Assembly: GCA_029261895.1 (NCBI GenBank)
Contig: JAJDAK010000064.1
Coordinates: 18,582 to 82,581, forward strand
Direction: 5' to 3'
DNA: 64,000 bases
Source: Deltaproteobacteria bacterium
Lineage (GTDB): Bacteria; Myxococcota_A; UBA9160; SZUA-336
Shown here: in pieces, positions 13,986-35,254 of the stretch
How positions within the stretch are numbered: position 1 is the first letter of the stretch
Layout: the number at the start of each line of letters is the position of its first letter
Position numbers and translations under genes: made by a program
The notes under the pieces: generated by a model
Databases searched by the model: none
What the model was told of the DNA's origin: nothing
The model's input: the letters and a program-made list of their open reading frames with translations, nothing else

Positions 13986-14012
13986 GAATGGCCTCCTTAG
14001 GGTGAAGTGAAT

Positions 14013-18592: not shown

Positions 18593-18886
18593 GTGTCGGA
18601 AGGATCAAAGCCAGCCAAAATAAACGTCAATATCGAGGACGAAATCGCGCAGGGCATGTACATCAACTTAGCGATGGTGCGTCATGCCGAAGCCGAATTC
18701 ATCATCGACTTGATGTACCTGCAACCGCAGCAACCCTCCGCGCGCGTGCGCGCGCGTGTTATTTCGAGTCCGAAGCACACCAAGCGTCTGATGTTGGCGC
18801 TGCAAGAAAATGTAAAACGCTTTGAAGAAAGATTTGGCGAGATCGAAGTTTCTGGTCCGAATCCGGCAGACGAACTCCTGCACTGA
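18593..18886 (+). CDS. Small conserved hypothetical protein (DUF3467-like)
   Basis: 97 aa (KINVNIEDEIAQGMYINLAMVRHAEAEFIIDL). No catalytic motifs. Confidence 0.5.
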   Translation: MSEGSKPAKINVNIEDEIAQGMYINLAMVRHAEAEFIIDLMYLQPQQPSARVRARVISSPKHTKRLMLALQENVKRFEERFGEIEVSGPNPADELLH

Positions 18887-19920
18887 TGCAACCAGCGCCT
18901 CCGCCACCACCGCTCCCCGGTCCGCTCGAACTTTCGAGTGAAAGCAGCGGGCCAAGTTGGCTCGTCGGTTGTGCAATCGGCTGCGGCACCATTCTGCTGG
19001 TTGGGCTGTTGTTGCTGGCGGGCTTCGCCTATTGGTTATTTACTACAGGTGATCAGCAACCGACACTGCGCATTGTCCAAGCCAATTCGCTGGGACATGC
19101 ACACGTTGCAGACCTTGCTGAAGACAAAGAGTTTCGCGAGATGGTCGAGCTCTTGGCAGTCGAGTTTAAAAAGACGCAGGGGCAGTCGGGCGTCGGATTT
19201 TCTCAAGGCGGGTCGAGCGATCGTTACTTGGTTCCTCGCGACGCGACATTCGCGTTGGATCGCAATGCGGAAGGTCAACTCGAGTTGATCCACGCGATCA
19301 ACCTGAAAATGTTTACCCGCGTAATTTCGTTCTATTTGAAAGTAGTCGCGCAAGGAGAACAGGCGGAGCGACCCGAGGTTACGGAAGAAAACGGTGATCA
19401 GATCTACTTCGGTGGCCTACTCGGTGAGCTGGCCATTGGACTGCACGAAGGCACAATCGTGCTCGCGAGTAGCGTCGATGCCGCGCGACGCGGTCTGATC
19501 CGATTGACCGATCCCACGCAAGCGATCGTGATCGACCCCCCTGCTGATCCTTGGGATGCCAGTGGTGCGCTCACGATCCAACCACAGGTCAGCGAGTGGT
19601 TGAAGGGTATTGGGTTGCAGGAGGCTGCACTTCGAGGCGCCGAAAGAATGGACGCCAATCTCGATATAGCCTCGACCGATCAGCTGACCGTGGAGCTCAG
19701 GATTCAGTATTTGGGTCCCACAGAAGCGGTCGCGGCCCGTTCCCCGCTCGAAGCAGCAGTCGCCCGGCTAGGAACGCGCCTCCAAGAATACGGATTTGCC
19801 CTCGACCATCAGGTTTCGATCGCCGGAAGTGAAGCAATAATACCCTTTAAAATTCAAGGGTTTAGGGCGAAAATTGCGAGCTGGGCGCAGCGTCTTGCGG
19901 ACCTCGCTGCACAGCGATAA
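18886..19920 (+). CDS. Membrane-anchored hypothetical protein (Pro-rich N-terminus, one TM helix)
   Basis: N-terminal PPPPPLPGP is followed by a hydrophobic stretch LVGLLLLAGFAYWLF. The start overlaps the upstream stop (TGATG). Confidence 0.5.
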   Translation: MQPAPPPPPLPGPLELSSESSGPSWLVGCAIGCGTILLVGLLLLAGFAYWLFTTGDQQPTLRIVQANSLGHAHVADLAEDKEFREMVELLAVEFKKTQGQSGVGFSQGGSSDRYLVPRDATFALDRNAEGQLELIHAINLKMFTRVISFYLKVVAQGEQAERPEVTEENGDQIYFGGLLGELAIGLHEGTIVLASSVDAARRGLIRLTDPTQAIVIDPPADPWDASGALTIQPQVSEWLKGIGLQEAALRGAERMDANLDIASTDQLTVELRIQYLGPTEAVAARSPLEAAVARLGTRLQEYGFALDHQVSIAGSEAIIPFKIQGFRAKIASWAQRLADLAAQR

Positions 19921-20115
19921 TTATTTTCGTCACCTCACGCGGTAATTGACGACTCCTCTATCAACGAATCCTGGTGCGCTTGGACCAGGTTTGGTCGAGA
20001 TTCACCAGCTTTTGCAGTGACTTAGTGCTGGGACTATTTGGCCTTTTGGGCTGAATATTCATTGCCGGATCGAACTGTGGCGTTTTAGTATGGTGAGTCG
20101 GGGTCGATTGGCCCC

Positions 20116-20814
20116 ATGAAGGAGGGATGGATGCGCTCTCGGAAGCTCACAAGTTGGGTAGTTGTTGCCGCTGTTGCGATGATGATGTCGTTGTCCACGA
20201 CGGCCGATGCGACCGCGATTTTAGGCGTTCAGGTCGGTGATTCATTCACGGTTGATAACGGTTCGGGACTCACCCTTTCGATGCAGTTTTTAGGTTTAGG
20301 CACGGGCACGCCTGCCGGCGGGCAGCAGGTGGGTGCAACCGCATTGCCAGGTGCGAGCGACCTGACTTTTCAGTTCGCACTCGAAGTGCTGACCGGTACG
20401 CTGACAAATCTGAGTGTAGGTGCTGTGCACTGCGCGCCGGGTCCGTTTAACGGAAACGCGCCGGGTGATTGTGGAACGTCGTTCCCTGCAGACTTCGGCC
20501 GTAGCTCGACGGGCGCTGGCACGGTTCCAGGTGCAGGTTCCGATGTGCAGGGTATTTCGGGTACCAGCTCGACACGTGTTTTTGAGTTCGGTTCTTTAAT
20601 TGCCGGAGCTAACTCTGACGCTTTCTTTTTGTCGTTCGCGCCGGGAGACCTTGGCTTCAACGGCAACACCTTCATCAATTTCGCCACAACCCCAAGCGGC
20701 AGTGCGGACCAGACGAGTATTCAGCTGGTCCCCGAGCCGTCGACCTGGGCTTTGCTCGGTCTTGGGTTGGGTGGCCTCGGTTTATCGGCGCGGCGAAGGA
20801 AGCGGCGCCCGTAA
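20116..20814 (+). CDS. PEP-CTERM sorting-domain secreted protein
   Basis: N-terminal signal peptide. The C-terminus is VPEPSTWALLGLGLGGLGLSARRRKRRP (PEP motif, TM helix, basic tail). Confidence 0.8.
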   Translation: MKEGWMRSRKLTSWVVVAAVAMMMSLSTTADATAILGVQVGDSFTVDNGSGLTLSMQFLGLGTGTPAGGQQVGATALPGASDLTFQFALEVLTGTLTNLSVGAVHCAPGPFNGNAPGDCGTSFPADFGRSSTGAGTVPGAGSDVQGISGTSSTRVFEFGSLIAGANSDAFFLSFAPGDLGFNGNTFINFATTPSGSADQTSIQLVPEPSTWALLGLGLGGLGLSARRRKRRP

Positions 20815-20963
20815 ATAGCCCTACGGGTCGAAAGACAGGGCGTTAGAGCTGAATGCTGGGGACGAACCAGAATCGGCCGATAGAAGCTATCGGCGAATAG
20901 AGTCGATTAGGGATAAGCCCATCGTCCCGGGCGCAGTCTCTAAGTTACGGAGGAACGCTGGCT

Positions 20964-22145
20964 ATGAAACCGAATCTTTTATCTTTGGCGGCTGTAGTGC
21001 TCGCCCTTTCTTTTGCGCCGACCGCATCGTTTGCGGTAATTGGCGACGTGGCATCGAGCGAGTGCAGCGTGGATATCGAGCTGGATCTCGGTATTCTCAA
21101 TGCGCTGGTTAACTGCGAAGTATTTTCCGGACCTTCACCAAACAACCCGATGCCGGTCGCTGGAAACTTCACCTACGTTTACACGGTGACCAATGATGCG
21201 AATTCAGATTTTAATCTTGAAGCATTCGCAGCGGACTTTGTCGACGGCGCAGTGACGAACGCGAGTCAGGTTGGCGCATTCGTGACGTCCGACGTCACAC
21301 CATCGGCGATCGATATCATCGATACGCCGACCGAAAAGGAAGTGCGTTGGCGTTTTGAAAGTCCGTCGGTCGCACCTGGTCAAATGGTGGAGCTTTTCAT
21401 CATTAGTGAATTCGCACCGGGTACGACGCAAATTACCGCGACCGGAGAGTTTGCTGTGCAGGGTTCGGGTGACGGTTGTCTTGGACCCGTCAATGATCCG
21501 CCCGCACCGTCAGAGATTCAGCTCCAGGGGCAGGCCGATACCTTTCTTCGTGCCGGTGTGCGCAACACCAACGAGGGGAAGAACGAGATCCTTCGACTGC
21601 GGTCGGATGGAAACAACCGGGTGTTGGTGAACTTCGACCTAAGTGAAGTTCCGCCCAGCGCCAGCTTGTCCCGTGCGACGTTGGTACTGCATATCAACGG
21701 CGAAAAGAGCCCGAGCAGCTGGGGCAAGGATTTTGACCGCACGGTAGAAGCTCATCTGCTGAACGAGCCTTTTGCGGAAGGAAACGGCAAGAATGCCGAA
21801 CTTCCAGGATCCCAGAAGACGCGCGGTAGCGGTGCCGCTGCAACCTGGAACTGCGGCATCGATACGGTGATCCAGGACCAGAACAGCGACTGCGCTACGA
21901 AATGGGCCGGTGGGAACTTCGCGCCCGCGACCGCGCCGCCCGTGGTTCATTTCAACGATCGCGCCGGGGATGTCGAATGGGATGTCACCGATGACATCGA
22001 AGCCGTGTTAGGCGGCGAGCCCTTCTACGGATTCCTGATCAAGAAGACGAATGAAGGCAAGGGCGGCAATGTTCGATATTTCAGTCGCGAGGGCGCGGCT
22101 GGAGACACCAGCAAGGAGCCACGGTTGATCCTCGAGTTCAACTAA
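20964..22145 (+). CDS. Secreted protein with a DNRLRE-like extracellular domain
   Basis: Signal peptide MKPNLLSLAAVVLALSFAPTASFA. Downstream is DTFLRAGVRNTNEGKNEILRLRSDGNNRVLVNFDLSEVP..ASLSRATLVLHI ... WDVTDDIEAVLGGEPFYGFLIKK. Family call from motif arrangement. Confidence 0.55.
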   Translation: MKPNLLSLAAVVLALSFAPTASFAVIGDVASSECSVDIELDLGILNALVNCEVFSGPSPNNPMPVAGNFTYVYTVTNDANSDFNLEAFAADFVDGAVTNASQVGAFVTSDVTPSAIDIIDTPTEKEVRWRFESPSVAPGQMVELFIISEFAPGTTQITATGEFAVQGSGDGCLGPVNDPPAPSEIQLQGQADTFLRAGVRNTNEGKNEILRLRSDGNNRVLVNFDLSEVPPSASLSRATLVLHINGEKSPSSWGKDFDRTVEAHLLNEPFAEGNGKNAELPGSQKTRGSGAAATWNCGIDTVIQDQNSDCATKWAGGNFAPATAPPVVHFNDRAGDVEWDVTDDIEAVLGGEPFYGFLIKKTNEGKGGNVRYFSREGAAGDTSKEPRLILEFN

Positions 22146-23535: not shown

Positions 23536-24687
23536 ATGGATCTTTCGTACACAGCGGATGAAGAAGCGTTTCGCTCGCGCGTTCGTAGCTTTCTGGATGA
23601 GAACTGTCCTGCGAAAGGCTTTGGCGAGATGTCGCTCGAGGAGGGTCGAGCGTGGCAGCAACGGCTCTTTCGTGCGGGTCTCTTGGGGGCAGCGTGGCCC
23701 AAAGAGCATGGGGGTGCGGGTCTCACCGAAATGGAACAAGCGATTCTCAATGAGGAATTCGCGCGCGCAAACGCACCGGGGGTGCCTGGGCAAATGGGAA
23801 TTTGGTGGGTCGGCCCAGCGATTCTGAAGCACGGCACAGCAGAACAGAAAGAGACTTGGGTTAGCCAGATTCTTTCTGGCGAGCATATTTGGGCAACGGG
23901 GTACTCCGAGCCTGCTGCGGGCAGTGACATGTTCAACACGCAGACCCGCGCAGAACCCGATGGTGATCATTACGTCGTGAATGGCCAAAAGGTCTGGACC
24001 ACTTTGGCACATCTTTCGAATTGGTTCTTCTGTCTGGTACGCGTTCCGCAGGAGAACCCCAAATCAAAATATGACGGCTTGACGGTCTTGCTCATCGAAA
24101 TGAATTCGCCCGGTCTCGAAGTGAAACCAATTCGACAAATTACCGGTGGCTCAGAATTCAATGAAGTGTTCATGACGGATGTTCGCGTGCCGATCTCGCA
24201 TCGCCTGGGTGCAGAGGGCGAGGGATGGAAGATTATTTCGGGTGCGTTGGTGAACGAGCGCAGCGGTATCGCATCAGGAATGCGTTTCGAACAATCACTT
24301 CATAAATTGGTTGGTATCGCGAAGCGCCGGCAGAAGGTCCAAGATCCGATTTGGCGCCAGCGGATTGCCGATCTTGCGATTTCTACTGCGATCAGCAAGT
24401 ACTCCGGGTATCGAAGCACATCAGATGGTATTGCCGGTAGGCTCAATCCTCATCTTTCGGCCGCGATGAAACTGCATGGCACAACGCTGTCTCAAAATTT
24501 TTCCTCCACCATTTCTGCGCTTCTAGGTGCGTACGGACAGCTTTATCAAAGCCATGCCGAGGTACCAGAAGCGCGTCAGGTTTCGGAGCGTCTTCTGGGG
24601 GAGCGCGCGATGACGATTGCCGGGGGTACCAGTGAGATTCAAAAGAATATTGTCGCGGAGCGAATTCTCGGTCTACCCCGGCGCTAA
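23536..24687 (+). CDS. Acyl-CoA dehydrogenase
   Basis: ACAD N, middle and C-terminal domains (YSEPAAGSD, GGTSEIQKNIVAE). Confidence 0.85.
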   Translation: MDLSYTADEEAFRSRVRSFLDENCPAKGFGEMSLEEGRAWQQRLFRAGLLGAAWPKEHGGAGLTEMEQAILNEEFARANAPGVPGQMGIWWVGPAILKHGTAEQKETWVSQILSGEHIWATGYSEPAAGSDMFNTQTRAEPDGDHYVVNGQKVWTTLAHLSNWFFCLVRVPQENPKSKYDGLTVLLIEMNSPGLEVKPIRQITGGSEFNEVFMTDVRVPISHRLGAEGEGWKIISGALVNERSGIASGMRFEQSLHKLVGIAKRRQKVQDPIWRQRIADLAISTAISKYSGYRSTSDGIAGRLNPHLSAAMKLHGTTLSQNFSSTISALLGAYGQLYQSHAEVPEARQVSERLLGERAMTIAGGTSEIQKNIVAERILGLPRR

Positions 24688-27453
24688 TATCTTTTTCTCT
24701 TCGAGGTAGCGGCCGATCATGTCGAGTAGTTGATCGCGGTCTACTGGTTTCGTGAGATAGTCATCACAGCCCGCTGACAGGCATCGTTCTCGGTCGCCCG
24801 CCAGCGCATGCGCGGTAAAGGCGATGATGGGACCCTCGAATCCGTGTTCGCGCAGCCAACGAGTTGCTTCGTAGCCATCCATCACGGGCATATCTATGTC
24901 CATAAGAATTAGGTCGAACGCAGCATCGATATCCTCTGCTGCGCAAACCGCATCCGTTGCGGCTTGGCCGTTCTCAGCGATTTCAACTTGAAAGCCCGCT
25001 TTCTTGAGCAGCATTCTTACCAGACGTTGATTGTCGATCCCGTCTTCGGCCACGAGAACTTTTCCTGAAAAGCGTCGCGTCACGGCGACGGTGGATTTAG
25101 TTTGGCCATCGATCAACCGCGCGGGTGGCGTTGCTGCAATGTTCGCTACATCGTCCAATGGCCCAGTGGGTAAGTACACCGTAAACGTGCTTCCGTTACT
25201 CGGAATACTGTGTACCCGAACCTCTCCGTTAAGTACGTCCAGAAGGCGTCTTGTGATCGCAAGCCCGAGCCCGGTTCCGCCGAATTGTCGTGTAGAAGAT
25301 GTATCGACTTGGACGAAGGGCTCAAAGATTCGAAGCAGTGCTTCTTCCGTCATCCCGACGCCTGTATCTACGACTTCGAATTGTAATTGAGGATTGGCGG
25401 TGTCGGCATCGATCGTCCGAATCCGTACTTGAACGCTCCCGCGTTCCGTGAACTTGATCGCATTGCCGATGACGTGCATGAGAATTTGCCGTAAGCGAAT
25501 CGGGTCGGTTTCAATCGTCTCAGGAATGAGGCCGATATACTCGACGTGAAAATCCAGCTGCTTGTTGACGGCTTTGCTCTGGAGTAGAAGTGTGACATCG
25601 TTCACGATGTCTACCGCGCGAACCTTGGTGAGTCCCAGTGATATTTGACCTGATTCGATCTGGGAAAGATCCAGAATGTCGTTGATAATCTGCAGAAGTT
25701 GGGCTCCGTTGCGATGGATCGCTTCGCGATAAGAGGCGCGGGCTTCAGGCGGCTCGTCGAGTTCTTCAATGAGGTTGACGTAGCCGAGGATTGCGTTCAT
25801 TGGTGTGCGGATCTCATGGCTCATGTTGGCAAGAAATTCACCCTTCGCACGGCTTGCGGCTTCTGCCAGATATTTCTCCCGGCGCAGCCCCTCGATCAAG
25901 CGTTGGTTTGACAGTGCCAGAGACAGTTGGGCGCCCACAGTGACGATGGTTCGAAGTTGGATATCGTCTAGGCGGGTTCTTTCTTTGCGCTCGACCACCA
26001 ATACGCCGACGGGTACGTCTGCTGCATAGAGCGGATTGTAGAGCGCGAAGCCACCGCGTTTCTCTCTTCCAGGAATATTACCTTGAAACTCGCAAATGGC
26101 GCGCTCTTTCAGCGTGGCGCGCGCGGTCTTCATATCGACGGTCCGCGTTTTCTCGGCGCGCGACCATTGAACGGGTTCGCGGGTGATGCGTCCATCTTCG
26201 TCCGCGATGGCCAAAGCGACCGAAGTCGCATCGACGACGTCTCCGAGAAGCGCCAAGCTGAGCTGAATTCCGTTCTGATCGGTTGGACCGACTGCGGTTT
26301 CTCCAACGCGAAACAATGTAGATAGGGAATGTTCGCGTTCGGTGAGTCCGTCGCGAAAGCGCGCGCGCACGGTTTCGGAACTCAGCACGTATTGCGCAGC
26401 GACTGCGACGAACGGTGCGACGGGATCGATCAAAATACCGAATACGATCGGAAACCCGATCGCGGAACTCGCGATCGTTACTAAAATACCCAGGAGCCCC
26501 AGCGCACGGTTCGCCTCAAAAACACCTGCAAACAACGCAACCAGCCCCGATAGTGCGAAGATGAGCGCGATTTGCAGCGGTATGGACTCGTCTTGAAAAC
26601 TGCTCTCGCCAGCGTGTTCTGCGAGCAGCGTTCGAGCGATCAATGCATGGATGTGCACGCCGGGCATGTTTTTTGAAATAGGTGTGGGCCACAAATCATG
26701 GTGTTCAGGCGTGGTAGAACCAACAAGGACGATGCGATCTTTTACAAGTGCATGGTCGAAGCTGTCGTCAATAACCTTATAGTACGGAATCGTCGGGATC
26801 GGCGGATTCCATCGACGATAGTCGATGGAAAGCTCGTGGTGCTTGTGTTCCTCCTGCAGTACCAAGTTGACCGACGCGTACGCGAGCAATGGCACGCGAA
26901 CGGCCCACATTTCTACGGTCCGTGGCGCGTGACGCACGACTCCGTCGTCATCTTGGAATACGTTTCCATTACCCAGTGCGGCTGCTGCTTCCATGAAATT
27001 CGGAGGTGGCATTACGGAGAACTCGACGGGTTCGTCGACGCCGTCAATCTGGCTGAACTGCCGGAATCCACCCAGGACAACATTGTTTGTTTCCTCGAGG
27101 GCTCGGACGAAGGTCTCATCGTCGGCCGCGTCCATTTCGGTTGCAAAGGCCACATCGAAACCAATGACCCTAGCGCCCGCACGATTTAGATTTCGTACGA
27201 GCTTCGCGTGTTGGCTGCGAGGAAAGGGCCATTCATGACCGATCTCGCGTGCACTTTGAGTATCAATCGCAACAACCGCGACATCTGGGTAGTTGTCGGG
27301 GTACGCGGGAGGGTACGTGGATGCGATTTTTGTCACCGCGTCGCGTACTACACGTTGCATCGGTGAAAACACGCCCAGTACTAGACCGGCACTGATCGTC
27401 ATCGCAACCAAGGTTGCGAGTGTAAGCGTGCGGATCCAGCGGGAGTCGGGCAT
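24673..27453 (-). CDS. Hybrid sensor histidine kinase with CHASE2 extracytoplasmic sensor, TM segments, HisKA, HATPase_c and a C-terminal receiver domain
   Basis: H-box SHEIRTPMNAI. G-boxes DTGVGM and GGTGLGL. Receiver LILMDIDMPVMDG. The N-terminal region has the CHASE2 pattern. The start is uncertain (TTG 27474 or ATG 27453). Confidence 0.8.
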   Translation of the reverse strand: MPDSRWIRTLTLATLVAMTISAGLVLGVFSPMQRVVRDAVTKIASTYPPAYPDNYPDVAVVAIDTQSAREIGHEWPFPRSQHAKLVRNLNRAGARVIGFDVAFATEMDAADDETFVRALEETNNVVLGGFRQFSQIDGVDEPVEFSVMPPPNFMEAAAALGNGNVFQDDDGVVRHAPRTVEMWAVRVPLLAYASVNLVLQEEHKHHELSIDYRRWNPPIPTIPYYKVIDDSFDHALVKDRIVLVGSTTPEHHDLWPTPISKNMPGVHIHALIARTLLAEHAGESSFQDESIPLQIALIFALSGLVALFAGVFEANRALGLLGILVTIASSAIGFPIVFGILIDPVAPFVAVAAQYVLSSETVRARFRDGLTEREHSLSTLFRVGETAVGPTDQNGIQLSLALLGDVVDATSVALAIADEDGRITREPVQWSRAEKTRTVDMKTARATLKERAICEFQGNIPGREKRGGFALYNPLYAADVPVGVLVVERKERTRLDDIQLRTIVTVGAQLSLALSNQRLIEGLRREKYLAEAASRAKGEFLANMSHEIRTPMNAILGYVNLIEELDEPPEARASYREAIHRNGAQLLQIINDILDLSQIESGQISLGLTKVRAVDIVNDVTLLLQSKAVNKQLDFHVEYIGLIPETIETDPIRLRQILMHVIGNAIKFTERGSVQVRIRTIDADTANPQLQFEVVDTGVGMTEEALLRIFEPFVQVDTSSTRQFGGTGLGLAITRRLLDVLNGEVRVHSIPSNGSTFTVYLPTGPLDDVANIAATPPARLIDGQTKSTVAVTRRFSGKVLVAEDGIDNQRLVRMLLKKAGFQVEIAENGQAATDAVCAAEDIDAAFDLILMDIDMPVMDGYEATRWLREHGFEGPIIAFTAHALAGDRERCLSAGCDDYLTKPVDRDQLLDMIGRYLEEKKILAPG

Positions 27454-27534
27454 GCCATACGCATCGGAATTCAAGCCTTTGGAGCTGTAGCTGCTTGCAA
27501 AGATCGCGTGGCGGCGTTGGCGTAGAAGAGGGCT

Positions 27535-29424
27535 CTAGGGTGTCATCAGCACTGCACCGCAGGATGTGCCCAGAGGCGGGCCGTATCCGTTCAGCGCGCG
27601 TTGGAGTAATGCGGCATCTTCGATGCCGCATTCGCCAGCGGGATCGAGTGGGTTGGTGATGGTTGGGTCTTGTGGACCATTGATATTGCAGAGCGCAGGC
27701 GTGGCCAAGCCCGCAGAAAGACCGATGAGGGCTGCTTTGAGTTCGATCAGATCGTCGGTCCAAACGCGACCGTCGTCGTTGACGTCCCCGCATTGACATA
27801 GGTCGCCGATGCCGTCTGGATCCAAAGCAAAACCGAAGCCACCGCGATCGAGTTGGTCAGGATTGACCACATGCCGACAGTTGTCTTCAAAGTTGAACAC
27901 GCCATCATCATCGGTGTCGCAGTTGAAGACCGTCGGGTCGAACGCGAGGCTCAACGTCGAAATCGGTGTGAACGTCGACCCACTGAGGATCGGTGCGGTG
28001 TCTACATCGCCATAGCGAAGTTGGATGGATCCGAATACCGCGTCGGTTTCAAGTGTGCTGTCGGTGATCGAAAGCTGGCGCGATGCTGCGATATCGATAT
28101 CACCCAGAAAGACCTTCGTGTCGATGATTGAACCCGGTCGAATATCGACGGTGCAACCGACAATGTCCACGTCGCCGCCGAAACCATCATTGTCCGAGGC
28201 GCCCGACGCGAAGATATTGGCATCGATCACCACAGGCCCGAGCGCGTCGAGTGAGACCGCTCCGCCAGAACCTGCCTCTCCCTTGCCATCGGCTTGGATC
28301 GGACCCAAGAGATCGATGGTGCCGAACGAAGATAGGTCGATGGTGGACTCACCGTTCGAACCGCCCTCTGCGAGCATCGCTCCCGTCGAACTCAATAGAA
28401 TTGATTCGTCCGCGCGAATTTCGATCGTTCCACCACAACCGGTCAGCGTCGTAGCTTGGATTTCGAGGTCACCAAAGATTTCGACGCTATGGCAGCCCAG
28501 TAGTATCGACCCACCACAGCTCTCGGCACCCCGGCCTTGAACGCGCAGATGATCGTTGATTCTAACCGAGCTACCTTCGAAACCAACGATCGATATGGTT
28601 CCCGCAGTGCCGTTCAGGTTGGTGCCATCGGCACCTCGGAGCAGTCCGTTGACCGTGATATTTCCGACCGCGGTAACGGTGAACTCTCCACCATCCCCGT
28701 CCCCGCCGCCGCGAAAATCGACGGTGTCGATGACAACGTTCCGACCCGCATTGATTTCAAACGATCCACCACCGCCCTCACCGCCGCTCACGTCCAGGTC
28801 ATTCAACGTTACATCTCGACCCGCAGTAATACCGAGGCCAACAGAGGAGTCGCTGCCTCGACCAAAACTTCCGCCTTGGCCCAAAACAGGACCGAACAAG
28901 TCGACGTCGAGCGCGGCCACGAAGTCCATCGTGCCAGCATCGGCGGCAATGACCGAGTTGGATACGGAGATCTTACTGATGCTCAGGATCGAACCCGTGA
29001 ATGCATCGAGTGCGAGCTCGCCGCCGGGGTTGCCCGTGAGGGAAACGGGGGCAGGACTCAGACTCGAGTTGTTAAAGAAGATACTCTCGTCTGCGTCGAC
29101 AGAAATATTGCCGCCAGAGTTGACCGAATCACCGTTCGCTCGTAGCCGACCCGAACCCGAAAGTGTGAAGTTCCGAGCGTGAATACTCATGGTATTGGAG
29201 CCGACGTCGAGTGTACCGTGCAAAATGACGTCGCGATCGCCGAAATCCAAGTTTGCAAAGTCATCGATCACGTACGTTCCACTTGGAATGGTGCACGGAT
29301 CTTGGTTGGCCGGGCAGAGCAGGTTGGGATCGTTGATTCCGTAGGCGGTGTTTCCAATCCCGACGAGGCCGAACACGCATGCGCTGAGCCAGACCCGGAA
29401 CAGGCGCCGGGATTGAGACTTCAT
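27535..29424 (-). CDS. Secreted Gly-rich beta-helix repeat protein with C-terminal TSP3-like and dockerin/EF-hand-like calcium-binding repeats (paralog B)
   Basis: Signal peptide, then DPNLLCPANQDPCTIPSGT, then degenerate G/D/S/T-rich repeats. The C-terminus is CDTDDDGVFNFEDNCRHVVNPDQLD ... CQCGDVNDDGRVWTDD. Confidence 0.7.
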   Translation of the reverse strand: MKSQSRRLFRVWLSACVFGLVGIGNTAYGINDPNLLCPANQDPCTIPSGTYVIDDFANLDFGDRDVILHGTLDVGSNTMSIHARNFTLSGSGRLRANGDSVNSGGNISVDADESIFFNNSSLSPAPVSLTGNPGGELALDAFTGSILSISKISVSNSVIAADAGTMDFVAALDVDLFGPVLGQGGSFGRGSDSSVGLGITAGRDVTLNDLDVSGGEGGGGSFEINAGRNVVIDTVDFRGGGDGDGGEFTVTAVGNITVNGLLRGADGTNLNGTAGTISIVGFEGSSVRINDHLRVQGRGAESCGGSILLGCHSVEIFGDLEIQATTLTGCGGTIEIRADESILLSSTGAMLAEGGSNGESTIDLSSFGTIDLLGPIQADGKGEAGSGGAVSLDALGPVVIDANIFASGASDNDGFGGDVDIVGCTVDIRPGSIIDTKVFLGDIDIAASRQLSITDSTLETDAVFGSIQLRYGDVDTAPILSGSTFTPISTLSLAFDPTVFNCDTDDDGVFNFEDNCRHVVNPDQLDRGGFGFALDPDGIGDLCQCGDVNDDGRVWTDDLIELKAALIGLSAGLATPALCNINGPQDPTITNPLDPAGECGIEDAALLQRALNGYGPPLGTSCGAVLMTP

Positions 29425-31287
29425 CTAGGGGACCGCGTTCCGGCAGCTCTGAGGAATGAAAGGGATGAGGCCGTTTGCATTGCGCTCGAGAACCGCCCAA
29501 TCGTCGACCTTGCAGTCGGGTGCGATATTAAACACATCCCAAGTATCCCCATCGACGGGTCCGGTGACGTTGCACTTCCGCGGCCCGGCGATTGAGGACA
29601 CCTGTGCGAGGGCCAGTTTAACCCCATCTGCGTCTGTTTGATTGACGAAACCGTCGCCGTTCACGTCGCCGCATTGGCAGACGGTACCGATACCGTCGCC
29701 GTTTGAGTCGGCCTGGCCGGCATTCGCGAAGAAAGGACAGTTGTCATCAAAGTTCAAGATGCCATCGTTGTCGTCGTCGCAGCTAGGAATATTTGGATTC
29801 AGAATCAGATTGGGCGCGGGCGTGATCGTGCTGCCGGTGAGATCGGGTGCGGTGTTTCGATAGAAGATGTTGACCATGCCACTTGTCGGATCTGCAGTAA
29901 TGGATCCCGCGATGGAACCATCTTCGCGGATCGTGAGATCAAATAGTCCGATCGCGTTGGGCTCGGTCATCAAAATCGAGGAGGCCGCGGCCATGTCGAC
30001 AAGACAGGCGGACATCGTAATATTGCCTGGTCTGCCGCCGTTCGATCCACGTACGTCGATCGAACCGCCCACACTGAGAGTATTTTCTGCATCGAGAGAG
30101 ATATCGGCCCCGATGCCCAGAATTCCGGTGGCGTCACCGTCAATGGTTCCGTTCATCGCAATCGATCCGTCGGCAGTAAAATCAATACTTCCTCCGCCTC
30201 CGGTACCGGGTTCGATTAAAATGCGTCCGTTGGTCGTGAGGTTAATGTCCCGCGTAGCAAAGATGTCTACGCTTCCCGCGGTACCATCGGGGGTGGTGCG
30301 TCCCATTTGGATATCATTTTGAATGTTCACCGTGTCACCGCTGATATCGACCGTACCCGCTGCCGCGCCCGCGCCACGTCCTTGCAATTGCAACTCATCG
30401 AAGATGAAGACGGTACTGTTTTCTTCGGTGATCACTTCGAGAGACCCGGCAAGGCCGCCATCGGCCTGACCGTCCATGGTGCGGAGTATGCCGGTGAAGA
30501 TCACATCGGCTTCGGCGGTTACCGTCAAGTCGCCACCGTCGCCCAAGCCCGTAGCAGACAGGTCGATCAGTCCAAGTGTGACGCTGCCGCTACCGCTACA
30601 CGTAACGTCGAGAAAACCGCCGCCGTCTTCGCCGCCTGAAAAATCCACGTCGTTTACAAAAATCGGCCCCGCGGTCGCATCGAGACCGTCCGGAAGCGAC
30701 GATTCACTTCCAGCGCCCGCGCTGCCGCCGTGACCGTCGACTTTGCCATTGAGTTGAATCTCGCCTGCGGCCACAACGGTGAGTGTTCCGCCCGACTCGT
30801 CCGAAGAGATCGAGCTCACGTCAATCTTGCCTTCGACGAAGACTGAACCGGATCCGGATTCGAGCGATATTGAGCCGCCCGGTGCACCGGACGCTTGTAA
30901 GGGTGGTGGAACGTTGTCGTTATTCGTCACGTTGATATCGTCGTCGGTAAAGATATCGATGGTGCCACCCTCGAGTGTGGATGATCCTTGCGCATCGATC
31001 CGACCCCCAAGTCCGAACGTCATCGATTTCGCGAAAATATTGATCGTGCCTGCGTCGACGACGATCATCATGGCGTTCACGGAATCCACGGTGCGGAGCG
31101 TGCCTTCGAGTATGACGTCACGCGCTCCGAAATCTAGAATTGCACTATCGGCGATCAGAAATGTGCCGCTGGGAATGATGCAGGGGTCCCCGGTGCACAG
31201 ATCGTTTGGATCTGAAATAATTTGCGCTTCGACCTGTACTGCCGCCAGCAAAAACAGGGACGCCGCGAAGATAACCAAACTGCGCAT
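29425..31287 (-). CDS. Secreted Gly-rich beta-helix repeat protein with C-terminal TSP3-like and dockerin-like repeats (paralog A)
   Basis: Start at MRSLVIFAASLFLLAAVQVEAQ (signal peptide). DPNDLCTGDPCIIPSGT ... CDDDNDGILNFDDNCPF ... CQCGDVNGDGFVNQTDADGVKLAL. The stop abuts the start of paralog B with zero spacing. Confidence 0.7.
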   Translation of the reverse strand: MRSLVIFAASLFLLAAVQVEAQIISDPNDLCTGDPCIIPSGTFLIADSAILDFGARDVILEGTLRTVDSVNAMMIVVDAGTINIFAKSMTFGLGGRIDAQGSSTLEGGTIDIFTDDDINVTNNDNVPPPLQASGAPGGSISLESGSGSVFVEGKIDVSSISSDESGGTLTVVAAGEIQLNGKVDGHGGSAGAGSESSLPDGLDATAGPIFVNDVDFSGGEDGGGFLDVTCSGSGSVTLGLIDLSATGLGDGGDLTVTAEADVIFTGILRTMDGQADGGLAGSLEVITEENSTVFIFDELQLQGRGAGAAAGTVDISGDTVNIQNDIQMGRTTPDGTAGSVDIFATRDINLTTNGRILIEPGTGGGGSIDFTADGSIAMNGTIDGDATGILGIGADISLDAENTLSVGGSIDVRGSNGGRPGNITMSACLVDMAAASSILMTEPNAIGLFDLTIREDGSIAGSITADPTSGMVNIFYRNTAPDLTGSTITPAPNLILNPNIPSCDDDNDGILNFDDNCPFFANAGQADSNGDGIGTVCQCGDVNGDGFVNQTDADGVKLALAQVSSIAGPRKCNVTGPVDGDTWDVFNIAPDCKVDDWAVLERNANGLIPFIPQSCRNAVP

Positions 31288-31466
31288 GGATCTATTCGAC
31301 TCGCTTCCTTGATTGTTGTATTTTACCCTCACTGTAACTGTACCTTGAGACTTTGAGACCTGACAACATAAATGTGGGAAATCAGCGTGTTCGGTGGCAA
31401 TATCGGTGCGCTAAATGGGAATTCGATCGAAGCTGTAGGTGTAACCCCGCAGTAGGAGGGTCAGGG

Positions 31467-32075
31467 ATGGATTGTCGGAACCACGTCTTAGTCGGTATGT
31501 CTGCACTTGCGTTGCTATGTAACGCTTGTAGCGGTGGGGACCCGCCAGGTTCCGATGCCGAAACAGCCGAGCCCGCGACCGTACCTGCATCGCCCACGCC
31601 TGGACCGTCCACCAAAACGGTGCCGCAGCCCGTGCTCGATGTTGTCCAAATTCCAGCAAATGTAGAGGATCCTGAAGAAGCGCTTCGCCAGCTTGAGGTC
31701 GCGATGGCGAGCGAGGATAGAGAGATTAGGGAAGCCGCAATTCTGGCGATTTGGGAGATTGAGTCCGATCGATCGAACGATGTTCTTGCCTCGGCCGCAA
31801 AGGCGGAGAAAGATACGGAGCTGCGCAGCTATTTGATGGAAGAGTTGCTGGATCGTGAAGCCCCGCAAGCATTCGATACGGCTCTTTTGTATTTGCAGGA
31901 TTCGACGCCCGATTTGCGGGAAGAAGCTGCGGAAGCGCTGGAGTCTTTAGAAAATTCAGCGGCAGCGCCATCGCTCTTGGCCGCGCTCAAATCCGAACAG
32001 GACGAAGATGTCCGCGACGCATTGATATCGGCGCTCGAGGAATTGGATCCAAGTTTCGAGGCGCCCGAGGAGTAG
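31467..32075 (+). CDS. HEAT-repeat (PBS-lyase-like) protein, probably exported
   Basis: Start at MDCRNHVLVGMSALALLCNACSGG with an AGGAGGG RBS. Acidic EExxR HEAT-like repeats follow. Confidence 0.6.
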   Translation: MDCRNHVLVGMSALALLCNACSGGDPPGSDAETAEPATVPASPTPGPSTKTVPQPVLDVVQIPANVEDPEEALRQLEVAMASEDREIREAAILAIWEIESDRSNDVLASAAKAEKDTELRSYLMEELLDREAPQAFDTALLYLQDSTPDLREEAAEALESLENSAAAPSLLAALKSEQDEDVRDALISALEELDPSFEAPEE

Positions 32076-32077
32076 TC

Positions 32078-33115
32078 TCAGTTATCGAGATTATCGATCG
32101 CGGTTTCGGCGGCTTCCTGGACGGAGCGGTCCGTATCGCGTTTCCAAATTTCGACCAGCGCTTCTCTATCTTCCGCATCACCCAACGCTTCAACTGCGGT
32201 GATCCGAATCTCAGCATCTTTGTCTTTAGCCGCGGCTTTGAGTGCATTGGTGACCACAGGATCGGTGCCGTCGCTGGTGGCGAGCGCACTCAGCGCTTCG
32301 AGTGCGACAATTCTGACCTGCTTGCTGCTATCGCGAAGGGCAGTCGCGAGAACTTTGCGCGAAGTGGGATCGTCTTCTGCCCACTCCGCGAACCCCTCTT
32401 CGATCGCATGCAGGCGGACGCCGGCGTCTTTATCGTTGAGCGCCGCCTCACGCAGTGGACCCTTCGGTGTGTTTTCCTCGTACCAAAGTAGGTTTTCTAC
32501 GGCCGCCTCGCGTACCCGCGGATCCCTATCTTGTCCGAGCACCTGAACCAAAATGTCCTTGGCTAATTCCTCGTCCAGGCCGACGAGTTGTTCGACCGCG
32601 TCGATTCGTTGGCTTGCCTTTTTGCTCCGCAGCGCGCGTTTCGTGACGTTTTCGAAGCTATCCTCGTCGACATCCTCTTTGGGTAGAGCTTGAAGTGCAG
32701 ATGGGATCCGTTTTGCGCCACTGCCTGCGAGCTTGCTTACTCCGTCCAAAATCCAAACCTCTGTCAATATTGTATGTAAGGCGTCGGCGTTCGGACCGGG
32801 CCCGTATACCGCGACCACATTTCGGTCGCCGAGTAAGCGGTTGAGCGCTTTTTCCATCGGCAAGGGTCCGACATCCAGATGAATCGAGTCTCTCGGCGGC
32901 TCCGCGGCGATGAATTGGACACCCGTCAGTTCGCTGATTCCCGCGAGCAGCTGATCGATCGGTGCTCCCGCCGAATTGATTGAAAGCCGATTGTTTTCAT
33001 GTAGTTCAAGCTGATATTGCGGTCCGCGTTTGGACTTCGTGGCCGCTTCCTCTGCACGCGACTCCGGCGCAGGGAGGAGTGCTATGCAAATGATGACCGA
33101 CATCAGCAGTTTCAA
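32078..33115 (-). CDS. HEAT-repeat (PBS-lyase-like) secreted protein
   Basis: Signal peptide MKLLMSVIICIALLPAPESRA. Repeated DPRVREAAVENL / DAGVRLHAIE / SKQVRIVALEAL / DAEIRITAVEAL units. Confidence 0.65.
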   Translation of the reverse strand: MKLLMSVIICIALLPAPESRAEEAATKSKRGPQYQLELHENNRLSINSAGAPIDQLLAGISELTGVQFIAAEPPRDSIHLDVGPLPMEKALNRLLGDRNVVAVYGPGPNADALHTILTEVWILDGVSKLAGSGAKRIPSALQALPKEDVDEDSFENVTKRALRSKKASQRIDAVEQLVGLDEELAKDILVQVLGQDRDPRVREAAVENLLWYEENTPKGPLREAALNDKDAGVRLHAIEEGFAEWAEDDPTSRKVLATALRDSSKQVRIVALEALSALATSDGTDPVVTNALKAAAKDKDAEIRITAVEALGDAEDREALVEIWKRDTDRSVQEAAETAIDNLDN

Positions 33116-33364: not shown

Positions 33365-35254
33365 ATGAACTGTAAGCGGAATGGACTCGCCGCGTTCATG
33401 GTGCTGGCGATCGCAACGTTTTGGGTGGGCGCCGCAGAGGTGCACGCAGTAGGCGGTGACGACGTAAATACCGCGAAGAAAGTGTCTAAGGACACCGAGA
33501 AATGTGGAAAGGCCATCGCAGATAAGGGCAACCAGTACATCCAGAAACGCGCCAAGGCGATCAACAGTTGTTTGGATACGGTTCTGAAATGCGATGAGCA
33601 AGCCGACGCGGTCAAGGCGGCGGCGTGTCGTGCCAAGGCAGTTGATCCAGGCAAGGGAAAGTGCTCGGTTGGTAAGTTGGACGGCGGCGCCACCACGATT
33701 GGTGCCGGCGCGAGTAACGGCGTTAATAAGACCAACAAGCCCACGCTTGATAAGGAACTCGCGAAGTATCGCGATGCGATTCAAAAAGCATGCTTCACCC
33801 CGGGCAAGCTAGCCGACGTTACAAGCATTCTGACCGGTATGGGTTTCAATCCCTTAGAAAACCCCACCGATGCCGACTCTCTAATGGATCAGATCAATAA
33901 TGATGATGACGGCGTAAGTTGTTTGGCAAATCAACTGGTGCTCGAGACGACACCGCTCGCGAACGAAATCGTCGCGTTGCTTGATCCCAACAATAATTCC
34001 AACGTCGCGTTCGCGCTACGAGAAGAGGGCGGCAGTATTTCGAGCTGCCCGCGACCATTGTTTACGGGAGCGAATCTCGAATGTCGTTTTGATCGACAGG
34101 GGATTTGTTTTGGCGGTACCACACCCGGCATTCCGTGTGCTCCGCTCGGTAGTCTCGCTTGCCCGGATGATCCGCTGGTTCCGTCGAATCGCGGTGCATG
34201 CCTAGCGAAGAGCCGGATCTTGGTCTTCGCGCCCGAATCCAGTCCGGGTGCAGGGATCACGACGCTGCCGATTTCGGTGATCGGCTCGATCGGTGTGAAC
34301 TGCGATCCCGAAGATCCCAACACCAATGGCTCGTCGTGTACCTGTGATTTCTTAGCGTCGGGCAGCATCTTCATCCCTGGAATCGGGGTCGCTTGTCTTG
34401 AGGCGTTCTCCGGTTGCCCCGCGGGTGAGCTGACCTGTGACGCCGGTGCGCGCGTGGATACCAAGGCGATTATGGATCATGACATTGGTTTCTGCTCGGG
34501 TACCTGCACGGGTGGTACACAGGACGGTAAGCTCTGTGCGGCTTCGGTGCAGCTTGGCTCCGACTTTGATCAGTGCAATCCATTCATTGGTGACCCGACT
34601 AGCTGTACGACGCCGTCGAATTGTACAACTGGCGGTGGTACCTGTGGTGGGGGGCAAGCGGATTGTGCAACCCAATGCGATGCATATTGCGATGCGTTGG
34701 GTCCCGACTATGAGTTCTTTGAGCAGGGCTGCGAAAACTTCTGCTTCCTGGGCGATACCCCGGATGTGTCATGCAACGTTGAGGGAGATTGCCCCAACGG
34801 AAGTTGCAGTGGAAAAGACGCTCAGTCGCCGAAGCAGCCTTTTTGCCAATGTAAGTGCCTCCAAGTGGGCGGTGCCGAATCCGCCGTTGCGGATGAGGGT
34901 TCACTGACTTGCAGCATCGGTATCCAGATCACGGTATTTGACACGGCAGACCCAAATGCGAAGTGTGAGGATCAGACCGACAATAAACTTTTGGAACTCC
35001 CCGACACTTGCATACCGATCACCACGGGGGCATCCGAAGCCTCGATCACGAATTTCGAACGCCACCAAGGAAGTGGGGTTAGTTTCGGTCCGTTCGGTAC
35101 GCAGGGTGCGAGCGTGACATGTCATGACCTAAACGAGGAGTCGATTCGACGGCTCCAGCTCGGTGGTACATTGACGTTCGGTGATTCGAATATCGGTGAT
35201 CTCGTGATCCCGCTCACGCTTGACTGCGCGGACGATCCAAGCGTCGCCGACTAG
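33365..35254 (+). CDS. Large Cys-rich secreted protein, hypothetical
   Basis: Signal peptide MNCKRNGLAAFMVLAIATFWVGAAEVHA. More than 45 Cys in clustered CxxC / CxC patterns (CTTPSNCTTGGGTCGGGQADCATQCDAYCDALG...). Confidence 0.6.
   Translation: MNCKRNGLAAFMVLAIATFWVGAAEVHAVGGDDVNTAKKVSKDTEKCGKAIADKGNQYIQKRAKAINSCLDTVLKCDEQADAVKAAACRAKAVDPGKGKCSVGKLDGGATTIGAGASNGVNKTNKPTLDKELAKYRDAIQKACFTPGKLADVTSILTGMGFNPLENPTDADSLMDQINNDDDGVSCLANQLVLETTPLANEIVALLDPNNNSNVAFALREEGGSISSCPRPLFTGANLECRFDRQGICFGGTTPGIPCAPLGSLACPDDPLVPSNRGACLAKSRILVFAPESSPGAGITTLPISVIGSIGVNCDPEDPNTNGSSCTCDFLASGSIFIPGIGVACLEAFSGCPAGELTCDAGARVDTKAIMDHDIGFCSGTCTGGTQDGKLCAASVQLGSDFDQCNPFIGDPTSCTTPSNCTTGGGTCGGGQADCATQCDAYCDALGPDYEFFEQGCENFCFLGDTPDVSCNVEGDCPNGSCSGKDAQSPKQPFCQCKCLQVGGAESAVADEGSLTCSIGIQITVFDTADPNAKCEDQTDNKLLELPDTCIPITTGASEASITNFERHQGSGVSFGPFGTQGASVTCHDLNEESIRRLQLGGTLTFGDSNIGDLVIPLTLDCADDPSVAD

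What the first reader, a model, noticed from the sequence alone, without database searches (positions are those of the whole stretch)
27535..31287. Two tandem, abutting paralogous secreted beta-helix proteins with TSP3-like and dockerin-like calcium-binding C-termini
Genes of 629 and 620 aa share a signal peptide, a DPNxLC..PC.IPSGT head, long degenerate Gly/Asp/Ser/Thr-rich repeats typical of right-handed beta-helices, and a C-terminal block with CDxDxDGxxNFxDNC (thrombospondin type-3-like) and CQCGDVNxDGxV (dockerin/EF-hand-like) motifs. The stop of one gene and the start of the next are contiguous, which indicates a recent duplication and co-expression. Such architectures are typical of adhesins, S-layer-associated or polysaccharide-modifying surface proteins, and this pair has no obvious annotation.
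Basis: seen in the sequence. Interest (0 to 1): 0.55.

Follow-up and report, generated by a model that had tools for sequence, protein, structure and literature searches.

The report
Tandem secreted beta-helix proteins, calcium-binding tails
Two neighbouring genes of an uncultured Myxococcota-like bacterium encode diverged copies of an acidic, secreted rod-shaped (beta-helix) protein with a calcium-binding tail; they belong to a sizeable, unnamed family of probable surface or matrix proteins, which is a useful annotation rather than a new kind of biology.

Summary
Two minus-strand genes, A (29425..31287, 620 aa) and B (27535..29424, 629 aa), abut as TAG|ATG. They are full-length paralogs (38% identity, E=6e-96).

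AlphaFold2 gives a confident right-handed beta-helix for residues 22-500 (pLDDT above 90), with rungs of about 28 aa. A profile of the C-terminal 120 aa matches thrombospondin type-3 repeats and the first segment of type I dockerins.

The duplication is not recent. A and B are sister sequences, and the syntenic relative carries a single copy.

The roughly 490-aa N-terminal module has no Pfam or NCBIfam model. It defines at least about 100 clusters at 50% identity, which carry various Cys-rich or Ca-binding C-termini. Named members are Myxococcota or 'Deltaproteobacteria' MAGs.

Conservation in the module is almost entirely structural: Gly turns, four Cys, three Pro and an LDFGxR cap motif. No catalytic constellation is visible.

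The rungs resemble the shafts of two-partner-secretion adhesins (EtpA, HMW1, giant TpsA proteins). However, there is no TPS domain and no TpsB gene, and the conserved cysteines set the family apart from Cys-poor TpsA proteins.

Best reading: non-enzymatic, disulfide-stapled adhesin or matrix rods with a Ca2+-dependent anchoring tail. A link to the downstream CHASE2 kinase is possible but is not conserved.

The parts
29425..31287 (-). Gene A: 620-aa secreted acidic protein. It comprises a signal peptide (aa 1-21), a beta-helix module (aa 22-503), a TSP3 repeat (aa 503-537) and a dockerin-like/Cys-knotted tail (aa 537-620).
27535..29424 (-). Gene B: 629-aa paralog with the same architecture. Its ATG directly follows the TAG of gene A.
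   Evidence: It is the sister of A in an NJ tree of 100 family members. Mature protein 60.7 kDa, pI 4.05.
31337..31366 (-). Sigma-70-like promoter match (TTGTCA-18-TACAGT) upstream of gene A. If it is used, it favours the ATG at 31287 over the GTG at 31332.
   Evidence: Consensus scan only, 9 of 12 matches. The number of sites in the region is not above the shuffled expectation, so this is weak evidence.
29779..31224 (-). Coding region for the conserved, unannotated beta-helix module of A (aa 22-503). It contains a Cys31-x4-Cys36 cap, an LDFGxR motif (aa 51-56), about 16 rungs of 26-33 aa, and Cys428 and Cys503.
   Evidence: Alignments A2, A3 and A4; conservation table; rung layout; no Pfam or NCBIfam model in 66 members.
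29428..29781 (-). Coding region for the C-terminal Ca-binding tail of A (aa 503-620). It contains a TSP3 repeat, CDDDNDGILNFDDNC...DGIGTVC, followed by CQCGDVNGDGFVNQTD (a dockerin/EF-hand-type loop plus helix), followed by the KCNV...C...DDWAVLER...C segment.
   Evidence: Subfamily alignment A5; profile hits to thrombospondin-2, COMP and type I dockerins. The AF2 model of this part has low confidence.
24673..27474 (-). Downstream same-strand gene: a CHASE2-GAF-HisKA-HATPase-REC hybrid histidine kinase. It starts 60-81 nt after the stop of B and may be co-transcribed. Its membership of the unit is uncertain.
   Evidence: Pfam; sequence of the gap; no terminator-like site in the gap. The kinase is absent from the syntenic locus L001.
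31353..33115 (.). Two HEAT-repeat proteins (31353..32075 + and 32078..33115 -) next to gene A. The 345-aa one has a signal peptide. Their linkage to the beta-helix gene is conserved in a diverged relative.
   Evidence: Pfam; synteny with L001; 36% identity of the HEAT protein against 69% for the flanking acyl-CoA dehydrogenase.

Best explanation
A and B are Sec-exported, very acidic (pI about 4), roughly 60-kDa proteins. After signal-peptide cleavage, residues 22-500 fold into a rigid right-handed parallel beta-helix of about 16 rungs, each 26-33 aa with Gly-Gly turns.

The N-terminal cap is a conserved Cys-x4-6-Cys loop plus an LDFGxR motif. Near the C-terminal cap lie two further conserved cysteines (C428 and C503), which probably staple it. 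That these four cysteines form disulfides is inferred.

The last roughly 120 aa form a Ca2+-binding tail made of one thrombospondin type-3 repeat, a dockerin-type Ca loop with its helix, and a Cys-bridged second segment.

The helix carries no conserved catalytic residues. Its most likely role is therefore a non-enzymatic rod, such as an adhesin, spacer or matrix fibre. The tail would then give Ca2+-dependent attachment to a partner protein or to the cell-surface matrix. This division of labour is inferred.

The rungs are of the same sequence type as the shafts of two-partner-secretion adhesins. The family nevertheless lacks the TPS domain and has conserved cysteines. This suggests folding in the periplasm, with export as a folded protein or retention there, rather than passage through a TpsB pore. 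This too is inferred.

The pair arose by a lineage-specific tandem duplication that has since diverged to 38% identity. The two genes are probably translated as a coupled pair from one transcript.
For: - Genes and junction. Paralogy.
- Periodicity of 28-30 aa and rung layout.
- Family size: profile A2 finds 15956 proteins at E<=1e-3 and 1349 at E<=1e-30 among 1.84 billion representatives. About 100 of the top 150 align over the whole 490-position module.
- Conserved columns: across 100 members they are almost only Gly, C31, C36, C428, C503, P35, P481, P490 and D52/F53/G54/R56.
- No model exists: 66 members have no Pfam or NCBIfam hit on the module. Their C-termini are DUF4215/myxo_disulf_rpt, Dicty_CTDC, TSP_3, EF-hand, MopE, dockerin or MYXO-CTERM.
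- Tail: the profile hits thrombospondin-2 and COMP, and type I dockerins.
- Rung similarity to TpsA shafts: EtpA at E=1e-7. The giant hits carry TPS domains and about 0.1% Cys.
- Acidity.
- A and B are sisters, and the syntenic relative has a single copy.
Against: - No experimental data exist for any family member.
- Localisation (outer surface, matrix or periplasm) is not established, and no sorting signal or secretion-system gene lies in the window.
- Gene neighbourhoods of seven other members share nothing, so context gives no functional support.
- The C-terminal tail model is unreliable (pLDDT 42), so Ca binding and the dockerin fold rest on motif and profile similarity only.
- No cohesin-like partner was seen among the scanned neighbours.
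- Absence of conserved catalytic residues across a family with 25-35% identity does not exclude subfamily-specific enzymatic sites.
- The profile E-values are inflated to an unknown degree by Gly-rich repeat composition.
Confidence: 0.5

Rival explanations
1. The beta-helices are polysaccharide-active enzymes (a lyase, glycosidase or C5-epimerase of the pectate-lyase-like superfamily) that are anchored through the dockerin-like tail, as cellulosomal enzymes are.
Confidence: 0.12
2. A and B are extracytoplasmic accessory or co-sensor proteins of the CHASE2 hybrid histidine kinase encoded immediately downstream. They would play the role that secreted LysM/FecR proteins are thought to play for other CHASE2 kinases.
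For: The kinase gene follows B on the same strand after 60-81 nt, with no terminator-like site between them. In another CHASE2 kinase locus a secreted LysM/FecR protein gene lies directly upstream (L013). That three-gene arrangement is described as the BiofilmReg operon in Burkholderia (PMC5192318).
Against: The syntenic locus of the closest relative has the beta-helix gene but no CHASE2 kinase. None of seven other family members has a CHASE2 gene nearby. No close ortholog of this kinase was found, so the reverse association could not be tested.
Confidence: 0.1
3. They are exoproteins of a two-partner (type Vb) or autotransporter (type Va) secretion system.
Against: There is no TPS domain (no PF05860 hit at E<=1) and no NPNL or NPNGI motif. 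There is no C-terminal beta-barrel. No TpsB/Omp85 gene was found in the 64-kb window. The four conserved cysteines contrast with about 0.1% Cys in the TpsA hits.
Confidence: 0.03
4. They are Ca2+-dependent ice-binding or antifreeze-type beta-helices.
Against: There are no RTX-like GGxGxD or xGTGND turns. Foldseek E-values are above 0.1. No regular Thr/Asx ladder is conserved. Nothing indicates a cold habitat.
Confidence: 0.03

Closest known systems
Shaft regions of two-partner-secretion (TpsA) adhesins: EtpA (ETEC; PDB 8cpk, 8vba), HMW1 (H. influenzae; 2odl) and giant cyanobacterial-type TpsA proteins
   Different: A and B have no TPS secretion domain and no NPNL or NPNGI motifs, and no TpsB partner gene is present. 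They are much shorter, with a single module of about 480 aa. They have four conserved cysteines where TpsA proteins are nearly Cys-free. They have a distinct N-cap (C-x4-C plus LDFGxR) and Ca-binding Cys-rich C-terminal modules.
Thrombospondin type-3 (TSP3) Ca2+-binding repeats (thrombospondin-2 1yo8/2rhp, COMP 3fby; bacterial OmpA-family TSP3 proteins 5wtl)
   Same: The motif DxDxDGxxNxxDNCPxxxNxxQxDxxxDGIGDxC aligns with TSP3 repeats, including the Cys positions. The Pfam TSP_3 hit has E=5e-5.
   Different: There is a single repeat unit rather than an array wrapped around Ca2+ ions. The Pfam score of 23.3 is just below the gathering cut-off of 25. Ca binding is untested. No L-lectin-like C-terminal domain follows the repeat.
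Type I dockerin modules of cellulosomal enzymes (e.g. 1daq, 2mte, 1ohz, 4fl4)
   Same: GDVNGDGxVNxxD followed by a helix matches the dockerin F-hand consensus. Profile hits have E=1.6e-7 to 1e-4. One family member (P0050) has two duplicated segments, as a true dockerin does.
   Different: In A and B only the first segment has Ca ligands. The second is replaced by a Cys-bridged KCNV...C segment. The module is flanked by CQC and further cysteines. Pfam Dockerin_1 scores 17.3 against the cut-off of 22.9. No cohesin was found nearby, and the organism shows no cellulosome context.
Myxococcota secreted 'cysteine-rich acidic repeat' proteins (TIGR02232 myxo_disulf_rpt / Pfam DUF4215) and Dicty_CTDC-repeat proteins
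   Same: Many family members carry these repeats C-terminal to the same beta-helix module. Sources name them only 'cysteine-rich repeat protein'.
   Different: A and B have the TSP3/dockerin-like tail instead of these repeats. The repeats themselves have no known function.

Membership tests
Right-handed parallel beta-helix (pectate-lyase-like / adhesin-like solenoid fold) | Stack of three-stranded coils forming a right-handed solenoid | tested here: met
TpsA exoproteins (two-partner secretion, type Vb) | N-terminal TPS secretion domain (Pfam PF05860) with NPNL/NPNGI motifs | tested here: not met
   There is no PF05860 hit at E<=1 and no NPNL or NPNG motif. The same Pfam scan finds TPS at E=1e-44 to 1e-49 in the giant proteins P0072 and P0073.
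TpsA exoproteins (two-partner secretion, type Vb) | Cognate TpsB (Omp85/POTRA) transporter gene adjacent | tested here: not met
   Pfam scans of the ORFs of at least 200 aa in the window show no ShlB, POTRA or Omp85 family protein.
TpsA exoproteins (two-partner secretion, type Vb) | Shaft built of Gly-rich beta-helical rungs | tested here: met
   Profile A2 matches EtpA residues 197-556 and the shafts of TPS-domain proteins over profile positions 69-448.
Classical autotransporters (type Va) | C-terminal 12-stranded beta-barrel translocator domain | tested here: not met
   The C-terminus is a 120-aa Cys-rich Ca-binding tail, and no autotransporter Pfam hit is found.
Thrombospondin type-3 repeat (Pfam PF02412) | DxDxDGxxDxxDxC-type Ca-binding repeat that passes the family threshold | tested here: inconclusive
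   A scores 23.3 bits against the cut-off of 25, and B has no hit. The subfamily profile nevertheless hits thrombospondin-2 at E=4.7e-19 and COMP at E=3.2e-16. Nine of 66 family members hit TSP_3.
Thrombospondin type-3 repeat (Pfam PF02412) | Ca2+ binding | not testable with these tools
   This requires biochemistry or a reliable structure with ions. The AF2 tail model has pLDDT 42.
Type I dockerin (Pfam PF00404) | Two tandem segments of about 22 residues, each with an EF-hand-like Ca loop plus helix | tested here: not met
   Only the first segment matches: Pfam profile positions 2-23 of 57 at 17.3 bits against the cut-off of 22.9, and A5 positions 43-72 against PDB dockerins. The second segment of A and B lacks the Asp/Asn ligands.
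Type I dockerin (Pfam PF00404) | Cohesin-bearing partner | tested here: not met
   No cohesin family hit was found among the ORFs of the window that were scanned. The rest of the genome was not available.
Beta-helix polysaccharide lyases / hydrolases / epimerases | Family HMM match and conserved catalytic acid/base residues in the central rungs | tested here: not met
   There are no such Pfam or NCBIfam hits. The conserved columns are Gly, Cys and Pro plus the N-cap motif LDFGxR.
MtsC cell-cell cohesion MYXO-CTERM protein (NCBIfam NF047638) | Equivalog score of at least 350 bits; MYXO-CTERM sorting signal | tested here: not met
   Scores are 30.9 and 21.3 bits, and the hits cover only the TSP3 stretch. 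There is no MYXO-CTERM at the C-terminus.
RTX / MpAFP-type Ca2+ beta-helix | GGxGxD nonapeptide or xGTGND Ca-binding turns in every coil | tested here: not met
   The regex finds no GGxGxD in A or B.
Unnamed 'C-x4-C / LDFGxR' beta-helix module family (defined here) | Signal peptide; C31-x4-6-C36; LDFGxR; about 16 GG-turn rungs; C428; P481; P490; C503 | tested here: met
   Both A and B align over all 490 profile positions, at E=2e-145 and 2e-146. Both carry every conserved column.

The most novel reading that the evidence does not exclude
The roughly 490-aa module could define a previously undescribed class of TPS-independent, disulfide-stapled beta-helix rods. On this reading they share ancestry with TpsA adhesin shafts but have switched to a 'fold in the periplasm, export folded' route. 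Myxococcota and their relatives would use them, fused to thrombospondin-like, dockerin-like or Cys-rich Ca-binding modules, as building blocks of an extracellular matrix. In this genome the duplicated pair would additionally serve as the extracellular partner of a CHASE2 sensor kinase, a sensor domain whose ligand is unknown.
Probability: 0.1. Interest if true: 0.6.

Novelty: new variant of a known kind. Interest (0 to 1): 0.38.

Why it matters
The finding gives a structural annotation to two hypothetical proteins. More usefully, it delineates a sizeable protein family that has no Pfam or NCBIfam model. At least about 100 clusters at 50% identity carry the full module. Public sources label members only 'hypothetical' or by their C-terminal repeats.

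The family links the rung type of two-partner-secretion adhesins to a different cap and a different cysteine pattern, and therefore probably to a different export route. It combines this with eukaryote-like matrix modules, namely TSP3 repeats and Cys-rich repeats.

If these proteins are matrix or adhesion components of Myxococcota-like bacteria, they are candidates for work on cell-cell cohesion and biofilm matrix. None of this overturns existing concepts. It is a new variant of the beta-helix adhesin theme, and no experimental data exist.

Tried and rejected
- Gene-neighbourhood inference failed. The contexts of P0002, P0003, P0004, P0009, P0010, P0159 and P0172 share no gene. The one exception is the HEAT-HEAT-beta-helix-acyl-CoA dehydrogenase synteny with P0002.
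- The CHASE2 link could not be tested from the kinase side. A search with the sensor half found only distant CHASE2 proteins of at most 33% identity. Of the two contexts inspected, one had a LysM/FecR gene upstream and one had nothing relevant.
- A scan of GTDB genomes with the alignment failed because no stretch was conserved enough. The scan with protein A alone returned only TSP3-repeat proteins (L006, L007) and did not find the source genome.
- The Foldseek search against PDB gave no significant match. The afdb50 library was unavailable.
- The AF2 model of the C-terminal tail, built with an 8-sequence alignment, was unreliable (pLDDT 42), so the dockerin fold could not be confirmed.
- The cluster look-up gave almost no names.
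- Literature searches for CHASE2 with beta-helix found nothing. The search for DUF4215 found one diatom adhesive paper that only mentions the repeat. The search for Myxococcota, TSP3 and dockerin found nothing on this family.
- A lipoprotein reading of B (LSAC at residues 13-16) was rejected. The motif lies before the hydrophobic core, and the family alignment places the cleavage at AYG|I.


Full report
**1. Observation**

The ORF list shows two adjacent minus-strand ORFs. One is 27535..29424 (629 aa). Public gene calls on an independent contig of the same sample also use the 620-aa form.

The junction reads ...GTC CCC TAG ATG AAG.... The stop codon of the upstream gene (A) is therefore followed immediately by the start codon of the downstream gene (B).

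BLASTP of A against B gives 38% identity and 55% positives across the full length, E=6e-96. The shared features are visible in that alignment and:
- a signal peptide;
- the DPNxLC..DPC.IPSGT head;
- Gly/Asp/Ser/Thr-rich repeats;
- the motifs CDxDxDGxxNFxDNC and CQCGDVNxDGxV.

The repeats are degenerate but periodic. BLOSUM62 autocorrelation of the core peaks at lag 28 (z=4.0) with a harmonic at 56 in A, and at lags 27-30 and 56-58 in B. Cutting A at the conserved Gly-Gly turns yields 13 regular rungs of 26-33 aa with the pattern GGxhxhxAxxxhxhxGxh.

The mature proteins are about 60 kDa, with pI 4.05 and 83-84 acidic against 21-24 basic residues.

**2. Fold**

AlphaFold2 was run with a 15-sequence alignment. 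It gives mean pLDDT 79.8 and pTM 0.76. Residues 22-500 are almost all above 90 and consist only of short strands at a spacing of about 28 residues. The signal peptide and residues 509-620 fall below 50.

- HxuA, Vag8, PfbA, UpaB and FHA.

**3. The N-terminal module is a large unnamed family**

The word-indexed search found only 15 relatives. They share the first roughly 500 aa and then diverge completely.

A profile of the N-terminal module (A2) was run against 1.84 billion cluster representatives. It found 15956 proteins at E<=1e-3 and 1349 at E<=1e-30. About 100 of the 150 listed align in one stretch over essentially all 490 profile positions.

Of 66 such members, none has a Pfam or NCBIfam hit on the module. 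Their C-termini carry DUF4215/myxo_disulf_rpt (16-21 members), Dicty_CTDC (11), TSP_3 (9), EF-hand (5), MopE (2), dockerin (2) or MYXO-CTERM (1).

The names given by sources are 'hypothetical protein', 'cysteine-rich repeat protein' or 'thrombospondin type 3 repeat-containing protein'. The organisms named are Myxococcota or 'Deltaproteobacteria' MAGs.

In a 100-sequence alignment, the columns conserved at 90% or more are:
- C31, P35 and C36;
- D52, G54 and R56, within an LDFGxR motif;
- a series of Gly-Gly turns;
- C428, P481, P490 and C503.

No acidic, basic or His residue is conserved in the central rungs. The conserved features are therefore structural: caps, turns and probable disulfide staples. 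This argues against a common enzymatic active site.

**4. Relation to two-partner-secretion adhesins**

Profile A2 against all PDB sequences hits only EtpA. The whole-sequence E-value is 1.1e-7 with high composition bias, and the match runs through the Gly-rich rungs 197-556.

The multi-stretch giant hits (2441-3932 aa) carry Pfam TPS secretion domains at their N-termini (P0072 and P0073, E=1e-49 and 6e-44). The others share that N-terminus with the NLFHSF and LNPNG motifs. Their Cys content is about 0.0-0.3%.

The rung type is therefore shared with TpsA shafts. A and B, however, lack the features that define TpsA proteins:
- There is no TPS domain (no hit at E<=1) and no NPNL or NPNGI motif.
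- No TpsB/Omp85 gene lies anywhere in the window.
- They have four family-wide conserved cysteines.

Type V passengers are typically Cys-poor because they cross the outer membrane unfolded; this is established knowledge rather than something tested here. From that I infer that this family folds and is oxidised in the periplasm. It would then be either exported in folded form or retained there.

**5. The C-terminal tail**

Eight family members share the tail of A and B (alignment A5). They include A, B, P0002, P0027, P0029, P0040, P0050 and P0074.

A profile of A5 against PDB sequences matches in two regions:
- Positions 2-42 match the TSP3 repeats of thrombospondin-2 (E=4.7e-19), COMP (3.2e-16), thrombospondin-1 and a bacterial OmpA-family protein.
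- Positions 43-72 match type I dockerins (GH9 dockerin 4fl4 at 1.6e-7, CelS 1daq/2mte at 2e-6, Xyn10B 1ohz at 4e-5, and others).

Pfam on the single sequences is sub-threshold. TSP_3 scores 23.3 against a cut-off of 25, and Dockerin_1 scores 17.3 against 22.9, both in A only.

Only the first dockerin-type segment, GDVNGDGFVNQTD plus its helix, has Ca ligands in A and B. The second segment is replaced by a Cys-bridged KCNV...C...D.AVL.R stretch. One relative, P0050, retains two duplicated segments.

AF2 on the tail alone was unreliable (pLDDT 42), although it placed helices after both segments. The TSP3-like and dockerin-like labels are therefore supported at profile level. Full dockerin membership is not, and Ca binding remains untested.

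**6. History of the pair and its neighbourhood**

In an NJ tree of 100 members, A and B are each other's closest relatives. They sit within a small clade that also contains P0002, P0027, P0050 and P0074.

P0002 comes from a Myxococcota MAG (GCA_046754285.1) and lies in a syntenic locus: HEAT protein, HEAT protein, a single beta-helix gene, a 138-aa ORF, and a convergent acyl-CoA dehydrogenase.

The dehydrogenases of the two genomes are 69% identical. The HEAT proteins are 36% identical. The beta-helix proteins are 33-35% identical.

It follows that:
- The duplication is specific to the window's lineage.
- The copies have diverged as far from each other (38%) as from the ortholog, so the event is old or the genes evolve fast. 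It is not recent.
- Fast evolution of the beta-helix and HEAT proteins relative to the enzyme fits exposed, non-catalytic proteins. This last point is inference.

**7. Transcription and the CHASE2 kinase**

In the window, a CHASE2-GAF-HisKA-HATPase-REC hybrid kinase (24673..27474) follows B on the same strand after 60-81 nt. No terminator-like site lies between A, B and the kinase. A promoter-like match lies upstream of A, but the number of such matches is at background level, so this is weak evidence.

The kinase is absent from the syntenic locus. No CHASE2 gene lies near any of the other sampled family members.

Other CHASE2 kinases do have a secreted LysM/FecR protein gene directly upstream (L013; BiofilmReg operon, PMC5192318). 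A partner role for A and B is therefore conceivable, but it is unsupported by conservation.

**8. Most likely mechanism**

Shown here:
- Both proteins have a signal peptide.
- They are paralogs.
- The fold is a beta-helix, predicted at high confidence.
- Conservation is structural only.
- The tail has TSP3-type and dockerin-type motifs.
- The rungs are similar to those of TpsA shafts.
- The TPS domain, a TpsB gene, a beta-barrel and enzyme signatures are all absent.

Inferred:
- The proteins are disulfide-stapled, non-enzymatic rods.
- They act on the cell surface or in the matrix.
- The tail mediates Ca2+-dependent attachment.
- The two diverged copies offer different binding surfaces.
- The pair is translationally coupled.

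I put about 0.5 on the adhesin/matrix-rod model as a whole. The rivals are listed with their own probabilities: an enzyme, a CHASE2 partner, a type V exoprotein and an ice-binding protein.

**9. Novelty and score**

The fold class and the tail modules are known. The specific module, with its C-x4-C/LDFGxR cap, TpsA-like rungs and Cys staples, has no model in Pfam or NCBIfam and no literature that I could find. I rate it a new variant of a known kind.

A specialist would find it a sensible family to define, but not a surprise. No mechanism-level novelty has been demonstrated. Interest: 0.38.

Noticed in passing
window 1..~4930 (-) and 5305..18256 (-): An open frame of at least 1642 aa runs off the left end of the window and ends in an AMP-binding/NRPS-like C-terminus. 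On the same strand it is followed by a lipid/polyketide-type cluster: a thiolase-like protein, an 1836-aa fusion of biotin carboxylase, BCCP and carboxyltransferase, an acyltransferase, a PPTase, a KS, FabA, KASIII and an enoyl reductase.
   Followed up: partly
window 33365..35254 (+): A 629-aa secreted, very Cys-rich protein has no Pfam hit even at E<=1. It lies next to the HEAT/beta-helix block and may be another matrix-type protein.
   Followed up: partly
window 31353..32075 (+) and 32078..33115 (-); L001 3568..5058: Two HEAT-repeat proteins, the 345-aa one with a signal peptide, keep their position beside the beta-helix gene in a Myxococcota MAG whose flanking acyl-CoA dehydrogenase is only 69% identical. 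By eye, residues about 31-110 of the 345-aa protein look like a secretin/TonB short N-terminal (STN)-type domain, but Pfam did not report it.
   Followed up: partly
window 24673..27474 (-); L013 4344..7941: A CHASE2 hybrid kinase lies directly downstream of the pair. In another genome a CHASE2 kinase is preceded by a secreted LysM/FecR protein and a response regulator, the arrangement described as the BiofilmReg operon in PMC5192318. No close ortholog of the window's kinase was found in the 5.8-billion-protein collection.
   Followed up: partly
L004 1836..4100 (protein P0003): A third family member (754 aa, 30% identical to A, with a different C-terminus) comes from the same sample, SRR15505518, on a contig with the same G+C content (0.565) as the window. 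It is probably a dispersed paralog in the same genome.
   Followed up: no
window 18886..22145 (+): Three further probable exported proteins lie 5-8 kb from the pair: a 344-aa ORF without Pfam hits, a PEP-CTERM protein (20116..20814) and a CBM96-containing protein (20964..22145).
   Followed up: no
proteins P0037, P0060, P0073, P0149 (not in window): Giant proteins of 2.4-6.5 thousand aa are built from up to 25 stretches of the same rung type. Most have TPS secretion domains and almost no cysteine.
   Followed up: partly
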